64,000 bases of DNA, taken from a virus. Below, piece after piece: positions 5,435 through 24,953 of this stretch (position 1 is its first letter; each line of letters opens with the position of its first letter). The stretch lies in the IMG/VR virus record IMGVR_UViG_3300031759_000010; one strand, written 5' to 3'. Under the pieces are notes generated by a model. The model saw only the letters and a program-made list of their open reading frames with translations, was not told the origin of the DNA and did no database searches. A program made the translations under genes and the position numbers.

Positions 5435-8400
5435 CTACTGAGACAGCTTCGATGCCTGCACGAGAATCGCGTTACCCTGCGCCCCGCCCAGGCTTCCTCC
5501 TGTGGTTGTTATTGTGGTTGAGCAAGCGCTTCCGCTCACATAGGTCCAACTGGTCGGCTCCGATGTATAACCGTACCCCGTATTCAGCATGGTAAATCCG
5601 GTTACCGCACCACTCGACACGTTCACGGTCAACTGGCCATTGGATCCACCGCCGCCGCTTGCTGCCACCACGCAGGTTCCCGTTCCGGTCGGAGTGCCGC
5701 CGCTTGAGTAGGTGGGTATTCCGATGCCCGTTGCCGTGAAATTGAATCCTGTGAGTAGGGTCTTACTGCCGCTGATCGCCACAGGCGCCTTCGTGCTCGG
5801 ACCGCAGGAACCAGCTCCGCTTTGCAGCAGTGATTTCTGTGTTGCAATCACCGAGGTCGATGACGGGAATGTGAGATCCCATGTCACCTGTCCGCCGCCT
5901 CCCGATTGGCTGGTGGGCAACGAATTTGAAAAATTGCAGTTGAAGATCACCGTGTGAGAACCAGCCGTGCCGTAATTCGAACTCACGATCAAGCTCGGTG
6001 CGGTGGCGGTGGTCCACTCGGCAAATTGCACAGTGTTGGAGTATGTTGCGTTCGCGGCCGGAGTCAACGTCGGCGCGTTGTAGGAGGCGTAGACGTAGTT
6101 GCCAGCCGCATCCGACGTGTTCGCGCATCCCAGAAAGATCGTTCCGCCGCTGCTCCACGTTCCACCGAGGGAAGCAAAGTTCAACGTGTTACTTACCACC
6201 GAAGTAACCGCGTAATAGCTTGTGCCGCTTGTATTCAGACCCGCCGGAGACGCCCCCGTAACACCAACCAGCGATCCAACTACAAACGCCGGAGGCAGGG
6301 AGCCAACCGTCAGGCTGGTTGCCGTTCCCCCCGTAATCGCCGTCGAGGCAATGCCTGTATCCGATCCACGGGCGCAAATCAAGTCACCGCCCGCAAATGT
6401 CACGGTGGGAGTGACCGCCGTGACCGCTGTCGCGACATAGGCCGTGGTGGCTATCTTTGTGCTGTTGTCACCGGCTGTTTGTGTGGGAGCCGTCGGAGAC
6501 CCGGTAAGGGCCGGACTGACCGCCGCTACTGGAGATCCGCTCCCTGTTGTGGCTGTTACCGTGGCCGTGCCCGATGCGAAAACGGGGACGCCTGTCGCCG
6601 ATCCATTGTTTGCCCCGAGCCCTCCAACCGAGGTGGGCACCGCGCTTGCCGCCACAGCCAGCGAGGGCGTAGTGGTGGAATTGGTGACGGTGGGAACAAG
6701 CCATGTCGGCCAGCTCCCCGAAGGAGCCGCAAAGCTGGTGAGCGCAGAAGAATACTGCGATACCGCTCCAAACCCAGGATATGTCAGCGACGTTTGGGAG
6801 CTGATGAACATGTCATCGATCCACACGGTCCCAGGAGCATCGATAAACATCGTCATTCCAGCCCCCGAGTCTGTTGCGCTTGACACGCAGGGCGTTGAGT
6901 AATAGGTCCATACCGTTGTGCTTTTGACAGACACTACGCCCGCGCAATACTGGTTTGTATTGCTGGTGTTGATCAACCTGACAGTGACTCCCTCTGAACC
7001 ACCATCCCCCTTCATCCAGAAAGACAGGATGTATTGCTGCCCGGATGTTACGTTGATTGAACCCTGATAAACGCTCGCATAGGATCCGCCGGTCATGGTC
7101 AACTCCTGCGAGTAGGAGCCGGTCACAGCGTTGGCGGCCGTTGTGGTAACCACCGTGATCGTGACAGGGCTTCCGGTGCAGGTTGCGGTGCCGCTGGTGC
7201 AGGTTGCCGTGGTTGGTGGTGACGTGCAACTACTTCCGCTTCCCGTAATCACCGCGCTGCTGAACGAACCGCTCGACAGTGTAACAGTAGCCGTTGCTCC
7301 AGAGCATCCGTTATTGAAGTTGGTCAGAAGGATTGTTCCCGATCCCGAAAAACCTCCACCTCCGCTTACTCCAGTTACTGACGCCAGTTCCAACGTTCCA
7401 TCTTGCAGATAGGTGCAGCTTGCGCCCGTCCCGCAGTATCCGGCCCAGCTTCCACCATAGGACGTAGTTCCTCCCGATGCGGTTGCGGTAATGCCTCCAC
7501 TCTCGAATCCGTTGTTCGTGAGCAGGTTGGCGTTGGTCAGATAGGCGGGGCTGAGTGCGGAGGTTACAGGGAGGCCCGACACATTTGTGCTGTATGTCGG
7601 AAGCCAGGTCGCGTTTCCGTTGTACCCACCGGCACCCTGTGTTGATGAGGTGATCTGCACATTGTTTGCTTCGTCATTGATAATCAGATGGCTATTGCGG
7701 GCCGTGGTGTTCGTAGCCGATGTTCCAAGATTGCCGCTGGCAACATCCACGCAATAGGCTCCATCGGAAACCGTTCCCGCCTGCTCCGCACAGGTGGTGC
7801 GAATGAGGTTGACCGCTCCAATGCCGGATCCCACCCTGATATAGGGAACCGTGTTCTTGTTGGTTAGCTGGGTGGTTGGACCTTCGGAATATGTGTTTAT
7901 GAAGCTAAGTTCCTGGGTGTAATTGTTGCCCTGAATGTAAAGGGCATACTGGCCGAATGGAGGGTGGGTGGTCTGAAGATTGCGGAACCACAGTCCGGCC
8001 GTATAGCTGCCGGTGAGGGTGGAGGTGATTGTGACCGTTGCCGGGCAGGTCGCTGTTCCGCTGGCGCAAGTGGCGGAAGTCGGCGCATAGGAGCAGAGGT
8101 TTCCTGAAAGATTGGTGACTGCCGACAGGAAGTTACCACTTGAATCCAATTGAACGGTTGCGGTCGATCCGGCGCATCCATTGTTGAAGTTGCTCAGGGT
8201 CACATATCCAGGCCCCGCCAATCCGCTTCCACTTATGCCGGTGACGTGGTTAAGACCAACCTTGCCGATGATCGTCGTGGGCATGCTGTTTGTCGAAGAC
8301 GAACTGTCACATGTCACGCTGTCGAACGAGGCGGAAGTAGAGACGTCATAAAAAGCGCACGATGGAGCTGTCTGAGTCAGAACGCCAATCTGCGAGAAGT

Positions 8401-11339: not shown

Positions 11340-11560
11340 AGGCTTGATTTTGTCCAGCGTTAGTGCGAAGATTGTTCTGCGGGGTGATTGTTTCACTCCT
11401 TCCCATATGACTCCTTGAGCAGAATCACATGGTCACCCCGCTCATCCCCCAAAAAAGCACAAAAAGAGCCCCCAGGTTGACATCCTCCCCTCCCTGAAGG
11501 AAGGGGATTCCTACGAGGGCGGCTTACGCCGCTCTTTCGGAGGGTTCCTGCTGCTGACGG
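11340..11560 (-). ncRNA. Candidate TnpB omega (right-end) RNA scaffold
   Basis: In this family the guide RNA overlaps the tnpB 3' end and right end. Here there is a 9-bp hairpin at 11486-11507 and a 9-bp long-range helix (11379-11387 with 11433-11441). Extent and guide are unknown. Confidence 0.3.
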
Positions 11561-12711
11561 CTTACATCGCCGTTCACTTCACAGGCTAACCGGGCGTGTC
11601 CCGCCCTTAGTACGTTGATTGCGCCGACTAGATCAGCGTTCTCCGCAAAGCCACATTCGACGCAAGCAAATTCTGCCTGTGTCTTGCGGTTTTCTCCTGA
11701 GACATGGCCACAATGTGGGCACGTCCGGGAAGTGTTCTGCGGTGGCACGGCCAGGAATAGGCCGCCCACCCAGAGCATTTTGTACTCCAGTTGCCGCCGG
11801 AATTCCGCCCAGCCCTGGTCGAGTATCGACCTGTTGAGACCGGCTTTGGCGCGGACGTTCCTGCCGGGTTGTTCGACAGTGCCAGCAGCAGACCGGGACA
11901 TATTGCTTACCTGCAAGTCTTCGACGACGACCATCGCGTGGTTTTTGCTGATGGTGGTAGAGGCTTTGTGCAGGTAGTCCCGACGGGCGTTGGCAATGCG
12001 AACATGGATGCGCTGGACTTGGGCTTTGGCCTTCTTCCAGTTGTTGCTGAACTTCTTCTTGCGGCTCATGGTCTGCTGCGCTTTACGCAGATCAGCAGCG
12101 TACCGCTTGAAGATGTTGAGAGGCGGATAGACGGTTCCATCCGAGAGCGTGGCAAAGCGCACAATCCCCATGTCGATGCCCACGGCAGCGCCCTGGGCGA
12201 CCGGCTGCTCGATTTCGCGCACGGTCTGAATAGAGATGAACCACTTGCCGTTGCTTGCGCTTACAGTGACATTTCTGACGGTGCCCAGCACCTCGCGGCT
12301 ATTGCGATACCGAACCCATCCGAGCTTGGGCAGGAAGATACGGTCGTTAGCCTGGTCCAGCTTGAAGCCTTGCGGGAAACGGAAACTATCTCCGAGCCCA
12401 CGCTTCTTGAATCGCGGGTATTCGGTTCGCTTCTCAAAGAAGTTGATGAAGGCGCGATCCAGGTTCTTGAGCGAGTGCTGCAGGGCTTGCGAAGGAGATT
12501 CCTTGAGCCACTCAAACTCGCTTTTCCATGCTGGAAGCAGGTTAGCCATCTCCACATAGCTGATGAACTTGTTTCCCGTTTCATGGTTGGCTGTTTGCAA
12601 CGCCAAGGCCTTGTTGAACACAAATCTGCATGACCCGGCAAAGCGGCGCATATCGCGCTCCTGATTACCGTCTGGCATGAGTTCAAACTTGAAAGCCTGA
12701 AGCCGTTGCAT
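11524..12711 (-). CDS. tnpB: TnpB (IS605 OrfB-type RNA-guided nuclease)
   Basis: N-terminus QAFKFELMPD, RuvC-like segments and the C-terminal zinc ribbon CPHCGH...CVECG. The ORF extends to 12879, but ATG 12711 gives the family-typical N-terminus. Confidence 0.9.
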   Translation of the reverse strand: MQRLQAFKFELMPDGNQERDMRRFAGSCRFVFNKALALQTANHETGNKFISYVEMANLLPAWKSEFEWLKESPSQALQHSLKNLDRAFINFFEKRTEYPRFKKRGLGDSFRFPQGFKLDQANDRIFLPKLGWVRYRNSREVLGTVRNVTVSASNGKWFISIQTVREIEQPVAQGAAVGIDMGIVRFATLSDGTVYPPLNIFKRYAADLRKAQQTMSRKKKFSNNWKKAKAQVQRIHVRIANARRDYLHKASTTISKNHAMVVVEDLQVSNMSRSAAGTVEQPGRNVRAKAGLNRSILDQGWAEFRRQLEYKMLWVGGLFLAVPPQNTSRTCPHCGHVSGENRKTQAEFACVECGFAENADLVGAINVLRAGHARLACEVNGDVSRQQQEPSERAA

Positions 12712-12733
12712 GACTTTATTGTATACTTGGTCT

Positions 12734-13156
12734 ATGCAGGGAAGCAATGATATTCGACATGGACGGCATTGTGTATTCAATATGCACGTACACTTGGTCT
12801 TTGTCACGAAATACCGGCGCGAAGTCTTCACCAAAGAGGTGCTTGACGATCTGCGAAGCATCTTTTCCGGTGTCTGCAACGACTTTGAAGCGGAACTGGT
12901 GGAATTCGATGGCGAAGACGACCATGTACACCTGCTCGTGAACTACCCCCCAAAGGTGGCTGTATCCAACCTCGTGAACAGTCTGAAAGGGGTGTCAAGC
13001 CGCATGATTCGCCAAAAGATGTACCCAAGCATCCGAAAGAAGCTATGGGGTGGGGCATTGTGGTCGCCAAGCTACTTCGCTGGCAGTTGCGGAGGCGCAC
13101 CCATCTCCGTCATTCGCCAGTACATAGAGCAACAACAGATAAACCCCGGAGGCTGA
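12734..13156 (+). CDS. tnpA: IS200/IS605 TnpA (Y1 HUH transposase)
   Basis: HCVFNMHVHLVFVTKYRR, HUH motif DHVHLLV, and SPSYFAGSCGGAPISVIRQYIEQQ with the catalytic Tyr region. Confidence 0.9.
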   Translation: MQGSNDIRHGRHCVFNMHVHLVFVTKYRREVFTKEVLDDLRSIFSGVCNDFEAELVEFDGEDDHVHLLVNYPPKVAVSNLVNSLKGVSSRMIRQKMYPSIRKKLWGGALWSPSYFAGSCGGAPISVIRQYIEQQQINPGG

Positions 13157-16475: not shown

Positions 16476-16781
16476 TTAGCTAGTGGTCAACTGTGCTTCG
16501 AGCTTCTTCAGCTCAGCCTCAAGCTCGGCCTTCTTCTGGGCCGGTGTCTTCAGGCTGTCGATACGGGCCGTCAGCTCACGCTTGCGGGCCTCCAGCTTGT
16601 CTGCGACACGAGAACGAATCTCGCGCTTCAAACTTGCAAGCTGAATTCCAACAAACTCCGGCTCGTCCAGTTGAAGAGCGTCATACTCGGCGCGAATCGC
16701 CTTTCCGAAGGCACACAGAGAGACAAGCTCGTCAACGTCCATGCGGTCTGCGGAAAAGTTCTTGAAAGTGCTGATGTTCAC
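16476..16781 (-). CDS. Coiled-coil protein
   Basis: 101-aa ORF, GTGA-coupled to the upstream gene. Heptad-like charged sequence. Confidence 0.55.
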   Translation of the reverse strand: MNISTFKNFSADRMDVDELVSLCAFGKAIRAEYDALQLDEPEFVGIQLASLKREIRSRVADKLEARKRELTARIDSLKTPAQKKAELEAELKKLEAQLTTS

Positions 16782-18241
16782 GCGTATACCTTATCCTTTC
16801 TCGTGTCTTTCAGCACGTCGTTGAGCGAGAGCAGAGGGGTGGCCATAATTTCATCGGCCAAACCATACACCCGGGTTCTCATTGTTGCCGCGAGGTTGGG
16901 AATCGAAAAATAATCCACTCCCCCGCGAATATCGAACGTCTGCATTTCGATACCGGCCCTGTTCATCGATCCCGACAGGTTCATCGAGCCGCCGCTGCAC
17001 TGATAGAAGTACACCGGAATTTCCTTGCCGACAAACTCCGCGTAGCGCTTGTACACATCCGCGAAATAGGGCGCGGTGTTTTCGTCGCCATCGGAGACAA
17101 TCGCGATCCCATCGATTTCGACCTTCTCCGACAACATCCGGTTCAGTCCGCACCCAATGGAGGTTCCACCGACAGCCCTGATGTGCCGAGTTGCCTTCTG
17201 AATTTCATCCAGGGGCATCCCGGTGACATCCACGGTTACCGGAGCGGTATCGAAGAACACCAGGTAGACCTTCCCCTGACAGATCTTGCTCAGGGTTGCA
17301 GCTACATGCTTCGCCGCCTCAATGGCGCTTCCCATGCTGCCGCTCTTGTCAGCCAAAACCAGCCAGTTCCCCTCGGGTCCGCCAAGCGCAGCAATCTGCT
17401 TGTCCTGCAAGCCGCGCAGCTTCTCCTTCAAGCCGCTATCGGAGACCGCTTCGGCCGCCCGGGTGGTCTTCAGGGTGTTCTTTTTGCTTGTCGCCGCCCT
17501 CTGGAGAGCCTCATCGAAGGCTCCACGGAGAGACGGGTTGCTCTTCAGGCCGAGCTTCTCCAACATCTTGACGTTGGTGGTAAGCTCGGTCGGCGTCATG
17601 CGCTCAATCAGGGCCCTGACAAGATCCGGCTGTTTTGCTTTCTCTCCCAACGCGCCCATGGCGATCAGGAAAGGGATCTTGAAGTGCATGATTGCCCCTG
17701 CGGCCTCGGTCGGCGACATCTCCGCCAGATGAGCAACGGCCTCAAACACGGAACCGCGAGGACGCTCTCCCTTGAAGAGAATCTTGTCCGCGTAAGCAGA
17801 CGGCGCTACATGCCCAAGAGCATACAGCTCCTTCAATGTGCCGCGATGCTGTACGGCCAGGTGGTCCCAGCCCTTCTGAGACTCCTTCTCGCGCAAATAT
17901 GCCTCTACCAGGCGGCGCAACTCCCGCATCTTGCCCTTGGGGCGTACCTCCAGGGCAAAACGATACGCTCTCGCCAGTTCACGCGGCCCCAGAAGGGCAA
18001 TATGCGCGAAGCTGTTGTCAAGCAGTTCGGGGTCGTTCTCATAGGCCAACCCGACGACCGGAAGAGCCACCTTCGAATCGCGAATCTGCCCTTTGAGGCG
18101 ATCCCATGCGATCAGGTGCTGGAAAAACTCGCCTTCCTGCTGGACTGCAACCTTACCGATAGGCAAATAGTCCTTCAGGGAGCCATGCGGTGACCGAGAC
18201 AACTCGGACACGATTCTGTTTCTCGTGATTCCAGTTTCCAT
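16778..18241 (-). CDS. vWA-domain protein with TROVE/Ro60-like N-terminal region
   Basis: C-terminal vWA domain with MIDAS LADKSGSM...GGTS...SDGDEN. N-terminal helical region resembles Rsr/Ro60 by eye, for example QHRGTLKELYALGHVAPS versus the Ro ..RDLLRLSHPKP segment. Strong RBS GAGGAGGA. Confidence 0.6.
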   Translation of the reverse strand: METGITRNRIVSELSRSPHGSLKDYLPIGKVAVQQEGEFFQHLIAWDRLKGQIRDSKVALPVVGLAYENDPELLDNSFAHIALLGPRELARAYRFALEVRPKGKMRELRRLVEAYLREKESQKGWDHLAVQHRGTLKELYALGHVAPSAYADKILFKGERPRGSVFEAVAHLAEMSPTEAAGAIMHFKIPFLIAMGALGEKAKQPDLVRALIERMTPTELTTNVKMLEKLGLKSNPSLRGAFDEALQRAATSKKNTLKTTRAAEAVSDSGLKEKLRGLQDKQIAALGGPEGNWLVLADKSGSMGSAIEAAKHVAATLSKICQGKVYLVFFDTAPVTVDVTGMPLDEIQKATRHIRAVGGTSIGCGLNRMLSEKVEIDGIAIVSDGDENTAPYFADVYKRYAEFVGKEIPVYFYQCSGGSMNLSGSMNRAGIEMQTFDIRGGVDYFSIPNLAATMRTRVYGLADEIMATPLLSLNDVLKDTRKDKVYA

Positions 18242-18267
18242 GTATTCATCCTCCTCTCGATGAAAAG

Positions 18268-18810
18268 TTACGGAAGTGTGCGGTTCCTCAGATAATCAAC
18301 GTAGAAGTCATAGTCGTAACCCTCGGAAGCGCAAAATTCTTTCGGATCTCGTCCCCCCTTCAATTTATTCTCCCTGCGGCAACAACTCAGGTAGTTGGCG
18401 GTGCTGTTTTCTCCACCCATCTCCAGCGGAATAAAATGATCCACCGTCATCTGCACATCGCCCATCTTCCGGCCGCAATACCCACACTTGAAGCCGTCGG
18501 CAACCCACACCTTCTGCTGCACCGCGCCGCTGATTTCGTAGCGCAATTTGCGGTGAAAGGCCTTGGCTGGCATCACCAGAACTTCAGGGTTGTCGCTGCG
18601 CTGAAGGAAGTCAGTCCACTCTTCCATATCCAAATGGCACACGGCTGCACCCCTATTGAGATCCATACTGGTGCCGGGGAGCATGAGGACAGCCTGAGCG
18701 CCTTCGCCGCCAACCACAACACCCTCGATCTTCAAGAGATTGCCGATGTCGCCCTTCAAGGCGGAACGGTGCGCCAAGTCTAACTGGTAGAATCTGTCAA
18801 AACTGGACAT
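18268..18810 (-). CDS. HNH-domain protein with unknown ~90-aa N-terminal domain
   Basis: CGYCG...VDHFIPLEMGGENSTANYLSCCRRENKLKG. ATG 18810 is preceded by AAGGAGGGG. Confidence 0.8.
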   Translation of the reverse strand: MSSFDRFYQLDLAHRSALKGDIGNLLKIEGVVVGGEGAQAVLMLPGTSMDLNRGAAVCHLDMEEWTDFLQRSDNPEVLVMPAKAFHRKLRYEISGAVQQKVWVADGFKCGYCGRKMGDVQMTVDHFIPLEMGGENSTANYLSCCRRENKLKGGRDPKEFCASEGYDYDFYVDYLRNRTLP

Positions 18811-18825
18811 TTCCCCTCCTTTGAA

Positions 18826-18858
18826 GGACAAAACAAGCCCCCACTCGCCGAAGTGGGG
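18826..18858 (-). terminator. Rho-independent terminator closing the ncRNA locus
   Basis: Minus strand: CCCCACT-TCGGCG-AGTGGGG followed by GCTTGTTTTG. Confidence 0.7.
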
Positions 18859-18863
18859 AAGGG

Positions 18864-18977
18864 TGGCGGGGCTTCCCGTTATGAGCGGGAAACGCTCTTT
18901 CGAGCGGTCAAACCATGTAGCTCCTGACAGTGGTAGACGAATCTACAAGTCGTCTGAAGTTCCTGTTTAGAAGCCCC
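18864..18977 (-). ncRNA. Structured RNA candidate closed by an 8-bp terminal helix followed by GCCA
   Basis: GGGGCTTC (18977-18970) pairs with GAAGCCCC (18875-18868), followed by G-CCA. Internal hairpins are AGACGA/TCGTCT, CGCTC-GAAA-GAGCG and TTCCCG-CTCATAA-CGGGAA. It does not fold as a canonical cloverleaf. Confidence 0.35.
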
Positions 18978-18989
18978 GATAAAATTTCT

Positions 18990-19116
18990 GGCGTTAAGTT
19001 GTTTCTGGTTGTTTTCGCGCTTGACCTTCAAGCTAACCCCCCTCATGGTGGAGGGCGAAGGAATCGAACCTTCAACTCGGTCTCCCAAGGACATGTAACC
19101 AAATACAGTGAACGCC
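18990..19116 (-). ncRNA. Circularly permuted tRNA-like RNA (YrlA / bacterial Y-RNA-type candidate)
   Basis: Order on the minus strand: closing helices GGCGTT/AACGCC and TTTGGTT/AACCAGA; T-arm GAAGG-TTCGATT-CCTTC; acceptor-like hairpin GCCCTCC-ACCATGA-GGGGGGT; TA; D-arm GCTT-GAAGGTC-AAGC. Confidence 0.5.
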
Positions 19117-19125
19117 AAACCTACA

Positions 19126-19187
19126 GCGGAAGTCGAACCGGCTTTATTAGATTCATCAATGAGTCATGTAAGCCGATTCAGTACCGC
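19126..19187 (-). other. Extended imperfect RNA hairpin between the tRNA and the permuted tRNA-like element
   Basis: GAATCGGC (19179-19172) pairs with GCCGGTTC (19142-19135), with outer GCGG/CCGC pairs. It contains a T-loop-like GGTTCGACT but no acceptor stem. Confidence 0.25.
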
Positions 19188-19230
19188 CAAAACAAAAAAT
19201 ACTCCGTCAAATCTGTCAGCTATTACCGCT

Positions 19231-19306
19231 TGGTAAATGAAATGGGATTTGAACCCACTACCCTTCGCTTATTATGCAAATGCTCTACCGAGTGAGCTAT
19301 TCATTC
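19231..19306 (-). tRNA. tRNA, 76 nt, encoded CCA, anticodon AAU (Ile by canonical numbering)
   Basis: Hand-folded cloverleaf: acceptor GAATGAA/TTCATTT, D-arm GCTC-ACTCGGTA-GAGC, anticodon arm TTTGC-ATAATAA-GCGAA, T-arm GTGGG-TTCAAAT-CCCAT, then A-CCA. Confidence 0.85.
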
Positions 19307-19510
19307 GTGTAAGCTGCCAAGCAGACGGAATCTCTCAAAACCAAAACTCAAAACCTTCCTCATCTTGCCACTATCCCCAAACCAAGTCAAGAAAACTTTG
19401 GTAACCTGCGGGGCAACCAGTTCCTGGAAGAACCTTGAGGCCACCCCGCAAAACACACCGTCAGGAGATGATTTCAATGTACCACAATTCTGCGGCTACA
19501 ATGGAAAAAT

Positions 19511-20218
19511 ATGAAGGATTTTTCTTTCGTCGGCGCGAAGGAGGCCCTGTGGAGTGGAGATGGCATCCCCATTGTCATCATGGCTGAGGAACTGGGCACC
19601 ACCGAGGAAACGGTCGAGAAGCTCATCCAGTATGGCTACCTGCACATTGTCCGAGACCACAAACTGCGGCAGTTGAGGCTTGTGGGGCGTCCCAAGATGG
19701 CCGGAATGACCTGGCTCAGGCAGGCCATGGGCCCCTTGCCGATGGTCCCCATCGTTCCCCTCAAGTACGCGGCAGAGATGCTCGACATGAAGGAGAGGCC
19801 CCTCAGAAAGATGATCTTGGAGCACAACATCGTGCTTTATATCGACCCTCTTCTGGGAGAAATGATGACCATAGCCTCATTTCACAGGCTTTTCAATGTC
19901 ATCTATCCGTGGCATGAGAGGACAAGATTCGACCGTCAAATGTTCCTGAACATCCTCTGCGGAATCGATAGCGGCAGCGCGGAGAAGTTTGTCCGGCCGC
20001 TACCCTATGACCAGAAACTTGAGCAGGAACTGCGCCGGATCTCGCTCCTTCCCCAGCCGGAGAGAACGCTTCGCGCGATGGAGGTCTACGAGGCGTTCAG
20101 GGACGCGAAAAAGATCAGCGATGTCGTCAAGGTTGCCAAGAAGACACCGCTCCAGTCAAGGGTGGAAAGAATGATGAAGGGTCTCAAGCAGAAAATCGAG
20201 AAGGACAATCAGGATTGA
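19511..20218 (+). CDS. Putative DNA-binding protein (two HTH-like segments)
   Basis: 235-aa ORF, the only plus-strand gene in this region. IMAEELGTTEETVEKLIQYGYL and LKYAAEMLDMKERPLRKMILEH resemble MerR/excisionase-type HTHs. Confidence 0.55.
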   Translation: MKDFSFVGAKEALWSGDGIPIVIMAEELGTTEETVEKLIQYGYLHIVRDHKLRQLRLVGRPKMAGMTWLRQAMGPLPMVPIVPLKYAAEMLDMKERPLRKMILEHNIVLYIDPLLGEMMTIASFHRLFNVIYPWHERTRFDRQMFLNILCGIDSGSAEKFVRPLPYDQKLEQELRRISLLPQPERTLRAMEVYEAFRDAKKISDVVKVAKKTPLQSRVERMMKGLKQKIEKDNQD

Positions 20219-20439
20219 TCCTCATCCTCGGGGTCTTCCTTTTTCTTCCCCTTGTGGGGCTCAGGCTCGTCGTCCTCATCCTCTTCATCGAGAATATCGG
20301 CCAGTTCCAAGGCTGGGCGGCGCACATCGAACGGATCAACTCTTCCCTTGACGTAGACGCGGCATTTCTTCGCCCCGGTCTCCTGGATGGCAATGATGCA
20401 GCACTCGCTGATAAACAGACCCTCTTCAACCTCGATCAT
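20209..20439 (-). CDS. Small protein with highly acidic C-terminus
   Basis: 76-aa ORF, ATGA-type coupled to the 1505-aa gene stop. Tail DILDEEDEDDEPEP...EDPEDEDQS. Confidence 0.5.
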   Translation of the reverse strand: MIEVEEGLFISECCIIAIQETGAKKCRVYVKGRVDPFDVRRPALELADILDEEDEDDEPEPHKGKKKEDPEDEDQS

Positions 20440-23400
20440 TGGAAGCTCCTTAGTTTTTCTCTCAACTCGTCCAGTTTAGCCTTGTCGGCATCGGTCAGAA
20501 GGGTTGAGTCAAGAAGTTCAAATGACTCATTTGAGTTAACGAATCCCTTAACCGAACCCCCTACTTTGAGGGCGGCGGTGCCGTCTCCCGGCCCTGAAGA
20601 ACCTTTTTTATTCCACTGGGCCCCTGCCGAACGAACGCGTCCCACAACTCCCGGATCTGTTTTTCTGAGGGAAGCCCAGTCTGGTTTTGGTTTTCTTGCT
20701 TCATCGATGAAACCCTCCTTCAACCGCCTTACTGCGTTGGTGGTGTGAGTCAGTTTCTGGAAACCCTGCACCCCGTACTCACGATACACCTGCTGGAAGA
20801 ACTTGAGAAGATAGGCTGTCGCCTCGTCAACCGTCAGACCGAATTCGCTCGGCTTGTCTGACATCAGCTTCGCGGTTGCCTCAAAAACACGCTGCTCAAC
20901 GCCGTTTTCAGACATGTCGCTCTTGTCCGGGTATCCGTTAGTCTCCAAATACAGCTCCAAGGGCTTGGGAATGGATTTGTCCATTTCCTTCATGCCGTAA
21001 ACCGACAACAGCCCCAGGTTCATCCTGATTTTCACAAGGCTTTCCTGCCACTTGTGATTCAGCTCTTCACGAAGAACGGCCAGTACGCTGTGAATCTTCT
21101 CTCCGCGAGGAAGAAAGGAAACAATAGCCCCTCCATCATAATTCTGCCCAATCCTCAAGAGCTTATTCAGCTCCTCTGGAGGGTTCATGATCTTCGCTTG
21201 GTTGAAGTAGTGCTTGTATGCGTCGGGACTAATCGAGCATCCGCGCGATTCGTAGTCCAGGTTCTCCTTGCCGTCAAATGTGGTATTCAGCGCCCTCAAT
21301 CCCTTGCGGCTCAGGAACACAATCTTCGTTCCGTCGGAGGATTTACGCACCTCACCCAACCCACGACCATCAAGGTCGAGGTATTTTTTAACTGCCATAT
21401 CGCGCTTCAACACAAGCGGAAGATTCGCCCGCATCCAGTCCTGATGACGCTTCAGCCACTTGTCGGTTCCGAATTGCGCGTCCGGGGTCTCTGGAGGAGC
21501 CATCTTCTTCAATTGCTCGGATATCTCCTCCAACTCCTTCTTGGCGGCAGCAACTTCCTTTGGACCGGCGGTATTCGGGTCCACATAGATCTTGTTGAAG
21601 AACGGCTGGTCGAGGTCGGCGGAGCGGTAGATGAGGTTTTGGTGGAATCCGGGAACAGGGACTTCTCCGCCAGGATGTACGCCTCCGTCACCACCCTGTT
21701 GTCCTCTGGCGTGAGCCATTTCGGAACGCAGTTCTTCGCCCCCAAAAATATCGGGTGAAGATTCGCTTCTCCCACGGCTTTCCCGATAGATTTGAAGCGG
21801 TCCACTAAGGTCTTCGCGTATTCTTGTGCTGTCATTGGGGTCTGCATAAATCTTCCTCAGCTCGTTGAGAGCCTTGACCTCCATCTCACCCAGGGACCGG
21901 GCTATTCTCACCTCTCCAGTGGTAAACGACTGGTTGTGCCCTTTATAGGTGTCGTGAAGAATCTCATGTTTGATGGTGTGCCACACCGAGCTTGCGGCCT
22001 GGTATGGATTTTCTCCGATTTGATTAAATGGATCAATGAAAATTGTCGCCTTTGACGTGTCGGCCGGATTGGGAATATACACGCCGTGAACCTTGTCGGA
22101 AAACACAATCCCGATACGATCTATTCCGGACCCGGTTCCATGAATCTCCGACCCCTTCAGCATGTCAATGGCCCCGCGGGCCAAACTCTGAATCTTGGAC
22201 GCGATTTTAATCACCTGGGCATTGGCGGAAATCTCTTTCATCTCCTCCAGAGTGAACCTTTGCCCCGAGTCGAACAGCGGAATATCCTTCCGCCCCTTGA
22301 AGGTGGGAAGGCTGTTGTAGATACCGGCAACGGTGTTCCGATGGCCCTGCACGACAGGATCAATCACCCTCTCCTGAATCAGCTTTTTGATATCGCTCGA
22401 AGCCTCATCGCGAAGCGACTCCCTGTTCAGCAAGAACGGATAATCCGGATTGCCCTCGGGGACGGTGGCGTGAACGTCTATAGCCACGCGCGAAGGAAGG
22501 CCCCTCACCCCCTCCGGGACGTCCATGTACATCATGAACTGGTAAATTCCGTTGTTGTGGACCTCGACGTTTAGCTTGTTCCACCTGTCAAAAGCCTTGT
22601 CACCCTTGACCTTGCTGATATACAGGTCCATATCAGCGCCCTGATAGTGCTCTGTGCTGTCCGGGGCGCTTGGAAGCTGCTTGGCCTCCTCTGGGCCTAC
22701 CTCGTGCCCATTACTAATCACCTTGATGGTTGCCGGAGGGCGAAGAGACAGCCTTGAAGAACCCAGGTATTCGTAAGCCCCGTACATGTACGCATTGTCG
22801 GGGAGCTTGCAAAGCACAGAGGTTCCGGTCGGCTCAGGGGTGGACAGTTTTTCGGTGTGAATATCAACACCGCCACCCAACAGGTCTTCCGGGGTAGCCT
22901 CGAAGGTATGGCGATAAAGAGATCCACCCTCATTGACAACCGTTGTCACCTTGATGCTCTTGCTCATCATGAGCGGAGCCGCCTTGGCCAGACCAAAACC
23001 TCCGGAGGCGGTAACATCATCACGTTTACCGCTGGAGCCGAGATCGGTAAACACCGTCTCCAGCTCATTCTTGGTCATCCCCTTGCCGGTGTCCTTGACC
23101 TGAATGGTGTGTTCATAGTCATCGACAGACACCGTGACGTTCTTATCTCCTGACTCTCCGCGCACCGCGTCCATGGCGTTCTGAACCAGCTCTTTCGTGA
23201 TAACCATCGAGCTGTTTGAGCCATAAAGACTGGACCCGAGAAGTTTGCCGAGAGCAGCGGGATCAGCGCCCAGCTTCAGCTTACCCTCGGAAGAACGAGC
23301 CTCCTGAACGCCAGAACCATCCTGTGGATCCGACACCTTGAACATGGGGGCGTCGGCGGTTCCGCCGATCTTGTCCACCCTGCCAAACCTCTTCTCCAGC

Positions 23401-24953
23401 TCGGACTTCAAGAGGCTGCCATTCAGACCGGCAAACTTACGCGGCGTCTTGGGCAGGTTCACAAAGGCATCCCCACCCGGTTTCACGGCATCGCGGATCT
23501 GATCGAGGGTTTTGCCAAGCATTTCCGGAGAAGACTGAACATTCAAGACGTTTGAGGCGTACACATGGTCGTACTTCCGGCTCAGGGCGTCAAAATCATG
23601 AAAACCAGGCCTTGCATTGGAGCCAAAATCGTGCGCCGTGACATTAAGGCCCCTCCCTCTTAGATCGCGGGCGTGACCGGCATCCACTCCGGCACCAAAA
23701 TCAAGAATCGACTCCCCGGGACGAGCGATAGAGGCCACATGCCTCGGCACAACAGCGTTTTTCCCAACCGCGCCAGAGGAGCGAGAGGTTTTGTTCGCAA
23801 CAGACACATCCTCGGGGCTGAATTGGGGCTGAGGGGCCATCTTGGTATCAACCTTCCCCTCTATAGGTGCCACCGGAGCCTCAGATTTGACCTCTGTGGC
23901 CTCCGTGGAGGCTTTGGCTGGCGACATATCCTTCTTGAGGTGAGAGCCGCTTAAAAAGGCAAAAAGAGCATCCACGCTGGAGGTTGTAACCTCCTCGGAG
24001 AAGCTGATCGCATCACCCTTCTTTGCGGCTTTGACTGCCTTCTGGAACCCCTCGGCGGCCGACTTCGCCATGCTGTAGGTAAAACCAAGGTCCACCATCA
24101 TCCTGACCAGGCGGAATGGGGCCATTACCGTCATCAGGCCAATAAGGGCGAGATTCTCTGGATTGCTCAGGCCATCAGCAACCTGACGCCCGCCCGCCTC
24201 AACCCCGCGAACCATGTTGACCACCGACCAGCCGCGATCTTTGATCTCGTCAATCTTCTTCTGGTCGTTCGCGTTGTAGACGTTGATCAGGTCACGCAGC
24301 GGGCTGCTGGTCATCGCCTTATATTTCTCGGCCTCGGCCTCCGGTACACCCTTGCTGATCAGGTACTTCTTGTTTTCTTCTGGCGTGAGTTCCGGACCGG
24401 CGTACTTTTCCAACCCCTTCACCAGCTTCGGCAGAAGCGGCTCCGACATGGCGGGAAAAGTCGCGTTCTCTATAGTCTTGACGTCCGGTGCCGGGGCCCC
24501 GCGCAGCTTCATCTGCCGCTGGTGCTCCGACTCCTCGGTGGTGATTCCGGTTGGAGTCGGAGACTTCCAGTGAATCTGACCCTTGTGCTTGGCGATAGCC
24601 GCAGCAATATGCTCATCCGGCATCTCGTCCGGAAACTTCCAGGGAGACAGAATGTTGGACATGTGGAGCTGGCGCTGGTGCTCCGACTCCTCGGTGGTGA
24701 TTCCGGTTGGAGTCGGAGACTTCCAGTGAATCTGAGCGGCGCGGCTCTTGGCAATCTTCGGAGACAGAATGTTGGGCATGTGGAGCTGGCGCTGGTGCTC
24801 CGACTCCTCGGTGGTGATTCCGGTTGGAGTCGGAGACTTCCAGTGAATCTGACCCTTGTGCTTGGCGATAGCCGCAGCAATATGCTCATCCGGCATCTCG
24901 TCCGGAAACTTGACCACGCCCAACCCGTCCACCTTGACCAGCTTGTCGCTCAT
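20436..24953 (-). CDS. Polyvalent giant virion-type protein: N-terminal triple repeat + SAM-methyltransferase + GHKL (HATPase_c-like) ATPase + HExxH metallopeptidase-like region
   Basis: Motif I ILDFGAGVD (nt ~23680). GHKL motifs ELVQNAMDAV, VKDTGKGM and SGGFGLAKAA (nt ~22950-23200). HEILH (nt ~21950). Confidence 0.8.
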   Translation of the reverse strand: MSDKLVKVDGLGVVKFPDEMPDEHIAAAIAKHKGQIHWKSPTPTGITTEESEHQRQLHMPNILSPKIAKSRAAQIHWKSPTPTGITTEESEHQRQLHMSNILSPWKFPDEMPDEHIAAAIAKHKGQIHWKSPTPTGITTEESEHQRQMKLRGAPAPDVKTIENATFPAMSEPLLPKLVKGLEKYAGPELTPEENKKYLISKGVPEAEAEKYKAMTSSPLRDLINVYNANDQKKIDEIKDRGWSVVNMVRGVEAGGRQVADGLSNPENLALIGLMTVMAPFRLVRMMVDLGFTYSMAKSAAEGFQKAVKAAKKGDAISFSEEVTTSSVDALFAFLSGSHLKKDMSPAKASTEATEVKSEAPVAPIEGKVDTKMAPQPQFSPEDVSVANKTSRSSGAVGKNAVVPRHVASIARPGESILDFGAGVDAGHARDLRGRGLNVTAHDFGSNARPGFHDFDALSRKYDHVYASNVLNVQSSPEMLGKTLDQIRDAVKPGGDAFVNLPKTPRKFAGLNGSLLKSELEKRFGRVDKIGGTADAPMFKVSDPQDGSGVQEARSSEGKLKLGADPAALGKLLGSSLYGSNSSMVITKELVQNAMDAVRGESGDKNVTVSVDDYEHTIQVKDTGKGMTKNELETVFTDLGSSGKRDDVTASGGFGLAKAAPLMMSKSIKVTTVVNEGGSLYRHTFEATPEDLLGGGVDIHTEKLSTPEPTGTSVLCKLPDNAYMYGAYEYLGSSRLSLRPPATIKVISNGHEVGPEEAKQLPSAPDSTEHYQGADMDLYISKVKGDKAFDRWNKLNVEVHNNGIYQFMMYMDVPEGVRGLPSRVAIDVHATVPEGNPDYPFLLNRESLRDEASSDIKKLIQERVIDPVVQGHRNTVAGIYNSLPTFKGRKDIPLFDSGQRFTLEEMKEISANAQVIKIASKIQSLARGAIDMLKGSEIHGTGSGIDRIGIVFSDKVHGVYIPNPADTSKATIFIDPFNQIGENPYQAASSVWHTIKHEILHDTYKGHNQSFTTGEVRIARSLGEMEVKALNELRKIYADPNDSTRIREDLSGPLQIYRESRGRSESSPDIFGGEELRSEMAHARGQQGGDGGVHPGGEVPVPGFHQNLIYRSADLDQPFFNKIYVDPNTAGPKEVAAAKKELEEISEQLKKMAPPETPDAQFGTDKWLKRHQDWMRANLPLVLKRDMAVKKYLDLDGRGLGEVRKSSDGTKIVFLSRKGLRALNTTFDGKENLDYESRGCSISPDAYKHYFNQAKIMNPPEELNKLLRIGQNYDGGAIVSFLPRGEKIHSVLAVLREELNHKWQESLVKIRMNLGLLSVYGMKEMDKSIPKPLELYLETNGYPDKSDMSENGVEQRVFEATAKLMSDKPSEFGLTVDEATAYLLKFFQQVYREYGVQGFQKLTHTTNAVRRLKEGFIDEARKPKPDWASLRKTDPGVVGRVRSAGAQWNKKGSSGPGDGTAALKVGGSVKGFVNSNESFELLDSTLLTDADKAKLDELREKLRSFQ
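24518..24909. repeat. Three in-frame coding repeats at the 5' end of the 1505-aa gene
   Basis: A 60-nt core (GCTGGTGCTCCGACTCC...CAGTGAATCTGA) occurs at 24518, 24674 and 24791. A second ~59-nt module occurs at 24578 and 24851. Together they encode IHWKSPTPTGITTEESEHQRQ repeats. Confidence 0.9.

What the first reader, a model, noticed from the sequence alone, without database searches (positions are those of the whole stretch)
16778..19306. Phage Ro60/TROVE-like vWA protein encoded beside a tRNA, a permuted tRNA-like RNA and an HNH protein
One minus-strand unit reads in this order:
- a tRNA;
- about 370 nt of non-coding, highly structured sequence;
- a terminator;
- an HNH-domain protein;
- a 487-aa protein with a C-terminal vWA/MIDAS domain and an N-terminal helical region that resembles bacterial Rsr (Ro60).

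Ro60 orthologues are known to be encoded next to their Y RNA partners. Bacterial YrlA-type Y RNAs are known to mimic tRNA. Here the same logic appears in a phage recombination/replication operon, together with an HNH nuclease, Sak4 and a Cas4-like nuclease. I do not know that combination as a described system. It could be an RNA-quality-control or tRNA-directed counter-defence module.
Basis: partly seen in the sequence, partly recalled or inferred. Interest (0 to 1): 0.75.

Follow-up and report, generated by a model that had tools for sequence, protein, structure and literature searches.

The report
Divergent phage Ro60 with tRNA-like RNAs
A tailed phage encodes a very diverged relative of the RNA-binding protein Ro60 just downstream of four small tRNA-like RNAs that share one conserved stem "handle"; the kind of system is known, but this widespread, unannotated variant has an unusual modular RNA design.

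Summary
On the minus strand lie a tRNA-model hit, about 370 nt of structured non-coding sequence, a terminator, an HNH gene and a 487-aa helical + vWA/MIDAS protein.

The protein is a distant Ro60 relative:
- Pfam TROVE does not detect it.
- A diverse family profile matches a Ro60 profile (97.9%, E 4e-13).
- The best Foldseek matches are all Ro60 structures.

The non-coding stretch holds three well-supported tandem RNAs and one tentative one. All carry one conserved "handle":
- stem 1;
- an AC / ACUW internal loop;
- UGA:UCG plus stem 2;
- UUACAUG.

The handle is joined to different tRNA-like parts:
- a whole tRNA-Ile(AAU);
- no tRNA-like part at all;
- a circularly permuted tRNA, like YrlA;
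- a tRNA shape with the handle in place of the anticodon arm (tentative).

Covariation supports the folds. A model of the RNA finds it upstream of the gene, on the same strand, in 42 of 44 related viral contigs. A search starting from the RNA hits only contigs that carry the gene.

Neighbour conservation differs by gene:
- HNH accompanies the module in about half the relatives.
- A small 101-aa downstream gene does so in 39 of 52.
- Sak4 and the exonuclease do not.

Phage Ro60 with Y RNAs is already described, so this is a new variant of a known kind. Binding and function are inferred.

The parts
19201..19331 (-). Handle RNA unit 1. The handle is 5' UUCCGUC-UGC-UUGGCAGC-UUACACG and 3' GCUGACAG-AUU-UGACGGAG. 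It encloses a complete tRNA-like body, tRNA-Ile(AAU) at 19306-19231, with an encoded ACCA.
   Evidence: - ARAGORN and Rfam tRNA, 57.1 bits.
- Model R1, 27.8 bits, E 5e-7, full model length.
- The single-sequence fold gives the enclosing stem.
- In 24 orthologous units the handle pairs in 85% of cells against 58% when shuffled, and 12 of 14 pairs carry compensatory changes.
19122..19191 (-). Handle RNA unit 2. It has the handle only (GGCGG-UACU-GAAUCGGCUU-ACAUG ... AAGCCGGUUC-GACUU-CCGCU) and a loop of about 25 nt, with no tRNA-like part. This resembles the short Y RNA YrlB.
   Evidence: - R1, 31.3 bits, E 7e-8, model positions 1-132 with the payload skipped.
- Minimum-free-energy fold z = -4.7, and 0 of 200 shuffles fold as well.
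18988..19118 (-). Handle RNA unit 3. In order it has:
- the handle;
- UUACAUG;
- a small variable hairpin;
- a T arm;
- a 7-bp acceptor-like stem (G3:U70) closed by the loop ACCAUGA;
- UA;
- a D arm.

This is a circularly permuted tRNA, as in YrlA-type Y RNA.
   Evidence: - R1, 116.9 bits (it is a training sequence).
- Rfam YrlA, 19.4 bits, sub-threshold.
- The minimum-free-energy fold equals the consensus, z = -3.9.
- Across 16 orthologues, 87% of cells are paired against 63% when shuffled, 25 of 31 pairs carry compensatory changes, and slid controls give 38-48%.
18866..18976 (-). Handle RNA unit 4 (tentative). It has an unpermuted tRNA shape:
- an acceptor-like stem GGGGCU/AGCCCC followed by GCCA;
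- the handle as a closed hairpin (CGACUU-GUAGA-uucg-UCUAC-C-ACUG) where the anticodon arm would be;
- a GCUC-GAAA-GAGC hairpin;
- a T-like arm with a non-canonical loop.
   Evidence: - The motif order (CGACUW, then a hairpin, then ACUG...UACAUG) occurs once in the window on this strand. It occurs in 12 distinct related loci (14 locus ids, as L005/L006/L007 and L008/L041 are duplicate records), always on the gene strand.
- In two relatives Rfam tRNA aligns such units end to end with a long insertion (L015:2845-2960 and L016:3005-3119).
- The single-sequence minimum-free-energy fold does not reproduce the model, so this unit is tentative.
18828..18859 (-). Intrinsic terminator-like hairpin (CCCCACUUCGGCGAGUGGGGG) with a U-tract. 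It ends the RNA array.
   Evidence: Terminator scan and the sequence itself.
18268..18831 (-). HNH-domain protein. It is 187 aa from the TTG, and probably 180 aa from the ATG at 18810. The first 75 residues or so match nothing known.
   Evidence: - Pfam HNH_5 and HNH and many PHROG HNH families.
- Only residues about 80-160 match phage HNH endonucleases or PDB HNH chains.
- Full-length homologues (49-66% identity) sit inside the module in about 22 loci. A further three hits are partial or distant.
16778..18241 (-). Diverged Ro60-like protein, 487 aa. It has a helical-repeat (TROVE-like) part at residues 1-286 and a vWA domain with a complete MIDAS motif.
   Evidence: - hhalign of family profile A7 against Ro60 profile A3: 97.9%, E 3.9e-13, residues 103-454 aligned to Ro60 144-538.
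- The top 13 Foldseek matches are Ro60 structures.
- With the N-terminal part alone, the top 3 matches are Ro60, TMq 0.45-0.55.
- Pfam vWA_Ro60 gives weak hits in 15 of 41 members; TROVE hits 0 of 41.
- phrog_850 'RNA-binding protein', E 9e-9.
16476..16781 (-). Conserved 101-aa helical protein of unknown function. Its GTG start overlaps the Ro-like stop codon (GUGA).
   Evidence: - Coordinates from the ORF list.
- Homologues lie immediately downstream of the Ro-like gene in 39 of 52 loci and in 7 of 15 loci found through the RNA.
- No Pfam, PHROG or PDB match of note.

Best explanation
This is a phage Ro60-Y RNA module of a highly diverged lineage.

The 487-aa protein is a Ro60 relative with a TROVE-like helical part and a MIDAS-bearing vWA domain. 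Just upstream, a separate transcription unit ends at its own terminator and encodes three well-supported non-coding RNAs and one tentative one.

Each RNA carries the same handle:
- stem 1;
- an asymmetric internal loop, 5' AC against 3' ACUW;
- UGA:UCG plus stem 2;
- the single-stranded motif YUAC-AUG.

The handle is fused to different tRNA-like parts:
- a whole tRNA;
- nothing;
- a permuted tRNA;
- a tRNA shape with the handle in place of the anticodon arm.

Proposed mechanism:
- The handle is the docking site for the Ro-like protein.
- The tRNA-like part recruits host factors that recognise tRNA or Y RNA, such as RNase P, the CCA-adding enzyme, modification enzymes, PNPase or RNA-repair enzymes.
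- The resulting particle redirects or blocks host RNA decay and quality control during infection, as shown in vitro for phiLo Ro60 with Yrl RNA and PNPase.

Shown here:
- homology and fold of the protein;
- conservation and covariation of the RNAs;
- reciprocal genomic linkage of RNA and gene.

Inferred, not shown:
- expression of the RNAs;
- protein-handle binding;
- the partners recruited;
- the biological role.
For: Protein:
- A diverse 41-sequence profile aligns to a Ro60 profile over 341 columns, covering two thirds of the helical part plus the vWA domain. Probability 97.9%, E 3.9e-13.
- The 13 best Foldseek PDB matches of the full model are all Ro60 or TROVE, E 4e-9 to 9e-6.
- The N-terminal part alone matches phiLo Ro60, D. 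radiodurans Rsr and human Ro60 at TMq 0.45-0.55. Every other helical repeat protein scores 0.30 or less.
- The MIDAS residues are invariant.
- Pfam's Ro60-specific vWA model gives weak hits in 15 of 41 members.

RNA:
- The permuted unit pairs in 87% of cells against 63% in shuffles, with 25 of 31 pairs carrying compensatory changes.
- The handle around the tRNA-type unit pairs in 85% against 58%, with 12 of 14 compensatory.
- Model R1 gives 147 hits, all on the gene's strand. Full-length hits lie upstream of the gene in 42 of 44 related loci. In the 64-kb window it finds nothing outside 18988-19331.
- R1 also matches the published YrlA region of mycobacteriophage Bxz1 over its tRNA-like core (38.8 bits, E 5e-7).
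- Bxz1's own YrlA reaches only 32.5 bits on Rfam YrlA, and the orthologous unit in L005 reaches 27.9. Sub-threshold Rfam scores are therefore normal for phage Y RNAs.
- The YUAY motif that YrlA RNAs carry before the variable loop (PMC4201824) is present here as UUAC.

Linkage in the other direction:
- An IMG/VR-wide scan with a handle pattern found 15 stretches.
- All 15 lie on contigs that carry the Ro-like gene, and 7 of those contigs were new.
Against: - No Pfam TROVE hit in any of 41 members.
- No PDB hit by sequence.
- Whole-chain TM-scores to Ro60 are low (0.33-0.39). The full AF2 model has pTM of only 0.55, so a closed ring is not demonstrated.
- The first 100 residues or so align to nothing in Ro60.
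- The helical part is about 70-80 residues shorter than in canonical Ro60.
- The canonical Ro-binding motif GNCGAAN0-1G of bacterial Y RNAs is absent; the handle is different.
- No expression or binding data exist.
- Unit 4's proposed fold is not the single-sequence minimum-free-energy fold.
Confidence: 0.72

Rival explanations
1. The RNAs work without the Ro-like protein. On this view they are derivatives of the phage tRNA array that act directly on host tRNA-handling enzymes. They could be processed tRNAs, tRNA decoys, or CCA-ended molecules that can be aminoacylated, like the tRNA-like domain of tmRNA. The shared handle would be a processing or stability element, for example an RNase III, RNase E or RNase P guide. 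Adjacency to the gene would reflect only a shared genomic 'RNA island'.
For: - In relatives the module sits inside large tRNA arrays of up to 23 tRNAs.
- Several units encode NCCA after an acceptor stem, and some carry G3:U70.
- Rfam gives weak permuted-tmRNA matches on the T arm, acceptor and CCA part.
- One relative has a real permuted tmRNA nearby.
- No binding data exist.
Against: - The window's phage has no tRNA array (one tRNA-model hit in 64 kb) yet keeps the RNAs beside the gene.
- Handle RNAs occur only near the gene: 42 of 44 loci, all on the same strand, and 15 of 15 contigs in the RNA-first scan.
- Ordinary tRNAs in the same arrays are packed a few nucleotides apart, which leaves no room for handles.
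- Unit 2 has a handle but no tRNA-like part. The handle is therefore not merely a tRNA processing signal.
Confidence: 0.12
2. The HNH protein is a working subunit. The RNAs would tether a nuclease to the Ro-like ring, a phage counterpart of the Ro60-Y RNA-PNPase machine. The module would then be a three-part RNA- or DNA-cutting system, not Ro60 plus a selfish homing endonuclease.
For: - Full-length HNH homologues, including the unique N-terminal 75 residues or so, are kept at 49-66% identity.
- They are always inside the module, either just upstream of the Ro-like gene or among the RNAs.
- Their divergence roughly tracks that of the Ro-like protein.
Against: - HNH is absent from about half of the loci. 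These include fairly close relatives: L013, L017, L019 and L020 share 56-62% Ro identity.
- The 101-aa downstream gene is kept far more often.
- From general knowledge, not tested here: free-standing HNH and GIY-YIG homing endonucleases typically lodge in phage tRNA gene clusters (T4 segB, the T5 tRNA region).
- A terminator separates the RNAs from the HNH gene.
Confidence: 0.2
3. The protein is an ordinary vWA/MIDAS adaptor of the CoxE, ViaA or BatA type with an unrelated helical N-terminus. On this view the Ro60 resemblance comes only from the shared vWA domain.
For: - The only Pfam hits on the window protein are weak VWA_2 and VWA_CoxE.
- NCBIfam gives a faint ViaA hit.
- hhalign with the narrow alignment was weak: 27%, E 7e-4.
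Against: - With a diverse profile the alignment to Ro60 extends about 190 residues upstream of the vWA domain into the helical part.
- The helical part alone retrieves only Ro60 structures at TM above 0.45.
- No MoxR or RavA-type ATPase gene is adjacent.
- The neighbouring RNAs are of the Y RNA type.
Confidence: 0.05

Closest known systems
Mycobacteriophage Ro-like protein with YrlA RNAs (Bxz1 gp220, ET08; Chen et al. 2014, PMC4201824)
   Same: - A phage gene for a TROVE + vWA protein has one or two Y RNA-like genes a few hundred nucleotides upstream on the same strand.
- One RNA has a permuted tRNA-like core (variable hairpin, T arm, closed acceptor stem, D arm) preceded by YUAY.
- Model R1 matches the Bxz1 RNA core.
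   Different: - Bxz1 gp220 hits Pfam TROVE and vWA_Ro60 strongly; this family hits TROVE in 0 of 41 members.
- The Bxz1 RNAs carry GCCGAG or GCCGAAG on the 5' strand and CCAUGU on the 3' strand. They lack the ACUGA / UCGACUW handle.
- This window has four units, with four different ways of joining handle and tRNA-like part.
Thermus phage phiLo Ro60 with Yrl1 and Yrl2 (PMC12135203; PDB 9kop, 9l5y)
   Same: - It is the best or second-best structural match to the model.
- It is a short (about 460 aa) phage Ro60 with two Y-like RNAs upstream.
- It is reported to form a complex with host PNPase and to damp its activity.
   Different: - The phiLo Yrl RNAs are described as a stem, a bulge with a CGAA motif, and a stem. 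Apart from one paragraph citing earlier work, that paper does not mention tRNA (2 occurrences of the word, 1 of them in the reference list).
- Sequence identity to this protein is about 16%.
- No HNH or 101-aa partner is reported there.
Bacterial Rsr (Ro60) with YrlA/YrlB, as in the Salmonella rsr-yrlBA-rtcBA operon, and D. radiodurans Rsr-Y RNA-PNPase
   Same: - A long tRNA-mimicking Y RNA is paired with a short Y RNA that lacks the tRNA-like part (units 3 and 2 here).
- A Ro-binding stem takes the place of the anticodon stem.
   Different: - No RtcB, RtcA or PNPase gene is in the module.
- The handle sequence differs.
- Two unit types have no described bacterial counterpart: a whole tRNA with an anticodon arm held by its acceptor end, and an unpermuted CCA-ended form.
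Permuted (two-piece) tmRNA genes
   Same: - Circular permutation of a tRNA-like domain.
- The 3' acceptor strand plus ACCA is followed by a spacer and then the 5' acceptor strand.
- G3:U70 is present in unit 3.
- Rfam gives weak matches.
   Different: - There is no mRNA-like tag reading frame and no pseudoknots.
- Scores are far below threshold (17.5 against 47).
- A D arm is present.

Membership tests
Ro60 / Rsr (TROVE + vWA) | Sequence match to the Pfam TROVE domain (PF05731) | tested here: not met
   No hit at E <= 0.1-1 for the window protein, for 10 distant relatives, or for any of 41 diverse members. Canonical Ro60 proteins all carry it.
Ro60 / Rsr (TROVE + vWA) | Profile-level homology to Ro60 that reaches beyond the vWA domain into the helical region | tested here: met
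   hhalign of A7 against A3: probability 97.9%, E 3.9e-13, query 103-454 aligned to Ro60 144-538. The first 100 residues or so are not aligned.
Ro60 / Rsr (TROVE + vWA) | Ro60 fold: a helical-repeat ring closed by a vWA domain | tested here: inconclusive
   - The 13 best Foldseek matches are Ro60, but TM is 0.33-0.39 and rmsd 11-14 A.
- The N-terminal part alone gives TMq 0.45-0.55 to Ro60 against 0.30 or less for all others, with weak E-values of 0.016-0.028.
- Ring closure cannot be judged from a model with pTM 0.55.
Ro60 / Rsr (TROVE + vWA) | C-terminal vWA domain with a MIDAS motif (DxSxS ... T ... D) | tested here: met
   - D298, S300, S302, T360 and D384 are invariant in 41 diverse members.
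- Pfam vWA_Ro60 (PF25045) gives weak hits in 15 of 41 members, best E 1e-4.
Ro60 / Rsr (TROVE + vWA) | Y RNA gene(s) within about 4 kb on the same strand (criterion of PMC4201824) | tested here: met
   - Three full-length R1 hits lie 750-1090 nt upstream in the window.
- The same holds in 42 of 44 related loci.
Ro60 / Rsr (TROVE + vWA) | Physical binding of the protein to the Y RNA stem | not testable with these tools
   Needs immunoprecipitation or gel-shift. Only genomic linkage is shown.
YrlA-type Y RNA (Rfam RF02553) | Rfam gathering score (69 bits) | tested here: not met
   The window scores 19.4 bits. The published Bxz1 YrlA region also fails, at 32.5 bits, as does the L005 orthologue at 27.9.
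YrlA-type Y RNA (Rfam RF02553) | Permuted tRNA-like domain: variable hairpin, T arm, closed acceptor-like stem, D arm | tested here: met
   - T arm 100% paired, acceptor-like stem 93%, D arm 73%.
- Compensatory changes occur in 13 of the 16 pairs of these three helices.
- R1 matches the Bxz1 YrlA core.
YrlA-type Y RNA (Rfam RF02553) | Conserved YUAY before the variable loop | tested here: met
   (C/G)UUAC-AUG is nearly invariant in alignments A5 and A6. Bxz1 has GGUUAC and GGUUAU.
YrlA-type Y RNA (Rfam RF02553) | GNCGAAN0-1G motif near the 5' end (the presumed Ro-binding site) | tested here: not met
   The 5' strand reads ACUGA. A CGA-containing motif, (U)CGACU(A/U), lies on the 3' strand instead.
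Ordinary tRNA gene (for 19306-19231) | Cloverleaf above the Rfam threshold, and a free-standing gene with a standard decoding anticodon | tested here: inconclusive
   - The cloverleaf is met, at 57.1 bits.
- It is enclosed by the family handle (R1 27.8 bits; covariation).
- Orthologous units in L005, L015, L016, L017 and L021 lack an acceptor stem (Rfam model positions 7-64, or 5-66 in one L021 unit).
- The anticodon changes from locus to locus: tca, tgt, ctt, aat, ctg.
- From general knowledge: A34 in an Ile anticodon is not the bacterial norm.
Homing HNH endonuclease | HNH catalytic core; patchy presence among otherwise collinear relatives; cleavage of the endonuclease-free allele | tested here: inconclusive
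   - The core is present.
- Presence is patchy, at about half of the loci.
- Divergence tracks the neighbouring gene.
- Cleavage is not testable here.
tmRNA / permuted tmRNA | Rfam threshold, a tag reading frame and pseudoknots | tested here: not met
   Permuted tmRNA scores 17.5 bits against 47. ARAGORN finds no tmRNA in the window.

The most novel reading that the evidence does not exclude
The shared handle may be a portable docking module. It would let one Ro-like protein display a changing set of tRNA mimics.

The set would include:
- tRNA bodies with complete anticodon arms whose anticodon differs from phage to phage;
- CCA-ended forms, some with G3:U70, that might be processed and even charged.

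The particle could then act as a decoy or sponge for host enzymes that target tRNA, such as anticodon nucleases of defence systems, toxins or tRNA repair sensors. Alternatively it could chaperone the phage's own tRNA supply. Either way it would be a counter-defence device built on Ro60.
Probability: 0.15. Interest if true: 0.85.

Novelty: new variant of a known kind. Interest (0 to 1): 0.6.

Why it matters
Ro60 and Y RNAs are conserved from bacteria to humans, and Ro60 is a major autoantigen. Even so, what the tRNA-like domain of bacterial Y RNAs does, and why phages carry the system, is still open.

- **Size of the family.** This lineage has 314 clusters at 50% identity with E <= 1e-30, and 962 with E <= 1e-3. 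It is almost entirely metagenomic: 2 hits among 50,697 deposited phage genomes. Standard annotation does not see it, so the real spread of Ro60 in viruses is underestimated.
- **RNA design.** The RNAs form a natural series in which one handle is joined to a tRNA shape in four topologies. These are at the acceptor end, at the anticodon position with open ends, at the anticodon position as a closed hairpin, and alone.
- **Use for experiments.** That series gives a ready-made set of variants for separating protein docking from tRNA mimicry.
- **A defined test.** It also gives a short candidate protein-binding motif to try.

Tried and rejected
Searches that gave nothing or too little:
- Pfam, NCBIfam and PDB sequence searches with the single protein or the narrow alignment gave only weak generic vWA hits or nothing.
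- hhalign against a single Ro60 sequence gave nothing. With the narrow alignment A1 it was weak (27%). Only the diverse alignment built from the representative search gave a clear result.
- A strict regular-expression scan for the handle found only 2 units in the window, against about 1 expected in shuffles. That is uninformative on its own, so I replaced it with the covariance model and the comparison across loci.

Ideas considered and set aside:
- The handle as a copy of the canonical bacterial Ro-binding motif. Rejected, because GNCGAA is absent.
- Homology of the handle to tmRNA (UUCGAC in the D-loop analogue) or to the 3' strand of vertebrate Y RNA stems (UUGACUAG). Both resemblances come from my memory of those sequences. 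Rfam gives no support for the tmRNA link. I left both as unverified.
- The 79-aa and 121-aa ORFs that overlap the RNA region as genes. Rejected, because the conservation pattern is base-pair covariation.
- Sak4, the exonuclease, the KTSC protein and the divergent 235-aa ORF as parts of the module. Rejected, at 0-1 of 52 loci.

Weak point:
- Unit 4's tRNA-shaped model is not the single-sequence minimum-free-energy fold, so I kept it as tentative.

Full report
**1. What is there**

The window comes from a tailed phage. It has a major head protein at 44892-45866, a portal at 51229-53052, a large terminase at 53643-55856 and a DnaB-like helicase at 59723-61075.

On the minus strand between 19331 and 16476 the order is:
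- a tRNA-model hit at 19306-19231: ARAGORN calls tRNA-Ile with anticodon AAU, and Rfam tRNA gives 57.1 bits;
- about 370 nt with no credible ORF, which folds better than all shuffles (z = -3.5);
- a terminator-like hairpin with a U-tract at 18859-18838;
- an HNH ORF at 18831-18268, whose likely start is the ATG at 18810 after a strong ribosome-binding site;
- a 487-aa ORF at 18241-16778;
- a 101-aa ORF at 16781-16476, whose GTG start overlaps the preceding stop codon.

**2. The protein**

Direct family searches fail.
- Pfam gives only sub-threshold VWA_2 and VWA_CoxE.
- NCBIfam gives nothing useful.
- PDB sequence searches give no hit.
- PHROGs matches phrog_850 'RNA-binding protein' over the vWA part.

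The protein belongs to a large family.
- 874 word-index hits, nearly all about 495 aa.
- An exhaustive search of 1.84 billion representatives found 962 clusters at E <= 1e-3 and 314 at E <= 1e-30.
- Only 2 of 50,697 deposited phage genomes contain a relative.

Structure prediction and fold search point to Ro60.
- The AlphaFold2 model (pLDDT 80) has an all-helical part (residues 1-286) followed by a vWA fold.
- Its 13 best Foldseek matches in the PDB are all Ro60 or TROVE structures, aligned over nearly their full length. They include Thermus phage phiLo Ro60, D. radiodurans Rsr, and Xenopus and human Ro60 (E 4e-9 to 9e-6). Whole-chain TM-scores are low, at 0.33-0.39.
- The helical part modelled alone (pLDDT 87) again puts phiLo Ro60, Rsr and human Ro60 first, with TMq 0.45-0.55. 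Every other helical-repeat protein scores 0.30 or less.

Profile comparison confirms it.
- A profile of 25 canonical Ro60 proteins, all carrying Pfam TROVE and vWA_Ro60, was built around mycobacteriophage Bxz1 gp220.
- Against the narrow family alignment it matched only weakly (27%).
- Against a diverse 41-member alignment (Neff 4.3) it matched at 97.9% probability, E 3.9e-13, over 341 columns. Residues 103-454 aligned to Ro60 144-538, which is well into the TROVE region.

Two further points:
- The MIDAS residues D298, S300, S302, T360 and D384 are invariant.
- Pfam TROVE hits none of the 41 members. The Ro60-specific vWA model hits 15 of them weakly.

I conclude that this is a distant branch of the Ro60 family with a shortened helical part. 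Ring closure is not established.

**3. The RNAs**

An nhmmer search with the non-coding stretch found conserved sequence upstream of the gene in most of 52 related IMG/VR loci. Reading those regions showed a repeated design:
- stem 1;
- ACUG(A);
- stem 2;
- (C)UUACAUG;
- a variable payload;
- stem 2';
- (U)CGACU(A/U);
- stem 1'.

Sixteen units whose payload is a permuted tRNA were aligned. That payload has a small hairpin, a T arm, an acceptor-like stem closed by a loop that often reads NCCA, then UA and a D arm.
- The hand-drawn structure pairs in 87.4% of cells, against 62.6% in column shuffles (0 of 500 shuffles reach it) and 38-48% when partners are slid.
- 25 of 31 pairs show compensatory changes.
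- RNAalifold independently predicted the same helices.

A covariance model (R1) was searched over 487 kb.
- It gave 147 hits, all on the strand of the gene.
- Full-length hits lie upstream of the gene in 42 of 44 related loci.
- In the window it hit only 18988-19118 (116.9 bits; a training sequence), 19122-19191 (31.3 bits) and 19201-19331 (27-28 bits). There were no other hits in 64 kb.

The window therefore carries these tandem units:
- **U1:** the handle enclosing the whole tRNA-Ile(AAU) and its ACCA.
- **U2:** the handle with only a loop of about 25 nt.
- **U3:** the handle with a permuted tRNA that has G3:U70 and ACCA in the closing loop.
- **U4 (tentative, about 18976-18866):** the handle as a closed hairpin inside a tRNA-shaped RNA that ends in GCCA.

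Supporting evidence for the individual units:
- The U4 arrangement (CGACUW, then a hairpin, then ACUG...UACAUG) recurs in 12 distinct related loci, always on the gene strand.
- In two of those loci Rfam's tRNA model aligns the unit end to end with a long insertion at the anticodon.
- The handle around tRNA-type units (24 sequences) pairs in 84.8% of cells against 58.0% shuffled, with 12 of 14 pairs compensatory.
- Single-sequence folds reproduce the model for U1-U3 but not for U4.

**4. Relation to known Y RNAs**

- Chen et al. (PMC4201824) define YrlA RNAs by four features: a 5' GNCGAAN0-1G motif; a YUAY that begins the variable loop; T, closed acceptor and D stem-loops; and a location within 4 kb of Ro60 on the same strand.
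- The tRNA-like core, the YUAY (here UUAC) and the location are all met. The GNCGAA motif is not.
- Rfam YrlA gives 19.4 bits on the window and 27.9 bits on the L005 orthologue.
- The published Bxz1 YrlA region itself reaches only 32.5 bits, so Rfam's threshold is not a fair test for phage Y RNAs.
- My model R1 matches the Bxz1 RNA over the tRNA-like core (38.8 bits, E 5e-7) but not over the handle.
- Bxz1's stems carry GCCGAG or GCCGAAG and CCAUGU instead.
- The RNAs are therefore YrlA-like in their tRNA mimicry but have a lineage-specific stem. That fits a protein this far diverged.

**5. Linkage and neighbours**

- An RNA-first scan of all IMG/VR contigs used the pattern ACTGANNNGCTTACATG-N85-115-CGACT. 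It found 15 stretches, and all lie on contigs that encode the Ro-like protein, 7 of them new.
- HNH homologues (49-66% identity, full length) occur in about 22-25 of 52 loci. They always sit inside the module.
- Only the HNH core resembles other phage HNH endonucleases. I cannot decide between a homing endonuclease and a working partner.
- The 101-aa gene is kept immediately downstream in 39 of 52 loci. It is the more faithful partner, and its function is unknown.
- Sak4, the PD-(D/E)XK-type exonuclease and the KTSC protein are not conserved neighbours, at 0-1 of 52 loci.
- In many relatives the module is embedded in tRNA arrays of up to 23 genes. The window's phage has no such array.

**6. 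Interpretation**

The best-supported reading is a phage Ro60-Y RNA ribonucleoprotein of a new, widespread lineage. I infer, but have not shown, that the handle is the protein's docking site and that the tRNA-like parts engage host tRNA- or RNA-decay factors. The analogies are:
- bacterial Ro60-Y RNA-PNPase;
- phiLo Ro60, whose complex with Yrl RNA and host PNPase reduced RNA degradation in vitro (PMC12135203).

Phage Ro60 with Y RNAs is an established kind, so this is a new variant and not a new category.

What is unusual:
- The protein is invisible to the TROVE model.
- There are up to six or seven units per locus.
- One handle is attached to a tRNA shape in four topologies.
- Some units have a full anticodon arm whose anticodon varies between phages.
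- Encoded CCA ends are frequent.

These features leave room for a decoy or tRNA-display function. That idea is speculative.

Noticed in passing
window 11524-12879 (-): A 451-aa ORF matches transposase families very strongly (phrog_506, E 6e-117). An insertion-sequence-type transposase therefore sits inside the phage genome, close to the recombination genes.
   Followed up: no
window 20436-24953 (-): A 1505-aa ORF begins with three near-identical repeats that each contain the 25-residue core HKGQIHWKSPTPTGITTEESEHQRQ. The repeat period is uneven (72 and 51 aa between successive copies). The repeats are followed by a long region with no family assigned here.
   Followed up: no
window 16476-16781 (-), and L001-L052 at about 5450-5850: A 101-aa helical protein whose GTG start overlaps the Ro-like stop codon (GUGA) is kept directly downstream in 39 of 52 loci. 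That is more faithful than HNH. It has no known family.
   Followed up: partly
L002, L004, L008, L010, L017 and others (flanks of the Ro-like gene): Relatives carry tRNA arrays of up to 23 genes on both sides of the module. These include suppressor-type anticodons (tta, cta, tca), which hints at stop-codon reassignment or suppression in some of these phages.
   Followed up: no
L012:57-346: A permuted (two-piece type) tmRNA gene scores 101 bits about 2 kb upstream of the handle RNAs in one relative.
   Followed up: no
L015:2845-2960 and L016:3005-3119: Rfam's tRNA model aligns end to end (positions 1-71) with 115-nt sequences. These are tRNA-shaped RNAs in which the handle hairpin replaces the anticodon loop. 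Annotation pipelines could take them for intron-containing tRNAs.
   Followed up: partly
window 18988-19118 (-), and L003, L004, L005, L010, L015: Some units have a G3:U70 wobble pair plus A73-CCA in the acceptor-like stem. From general knowledge this is the identity set for alanine charging. It is not universal in the family.
   Followed up: no
LR756511.1, 285813-287216: A 595-kb uncultured 'huge phage' genome encodes a 33%-identical homologue of the Ro-like protein. It is the only substantial match in the deposited phage collection.
   Followed up: no
window 19511-20218 (+): A divergently oriented 235-aa ORF matches no Pfam or PHROG family and is not conserved near the module. The 180-nt gap between it and unit 1 presumably holds the promoter for the RNA array, but no sigma-70-like site was found.
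   Followed up: partly
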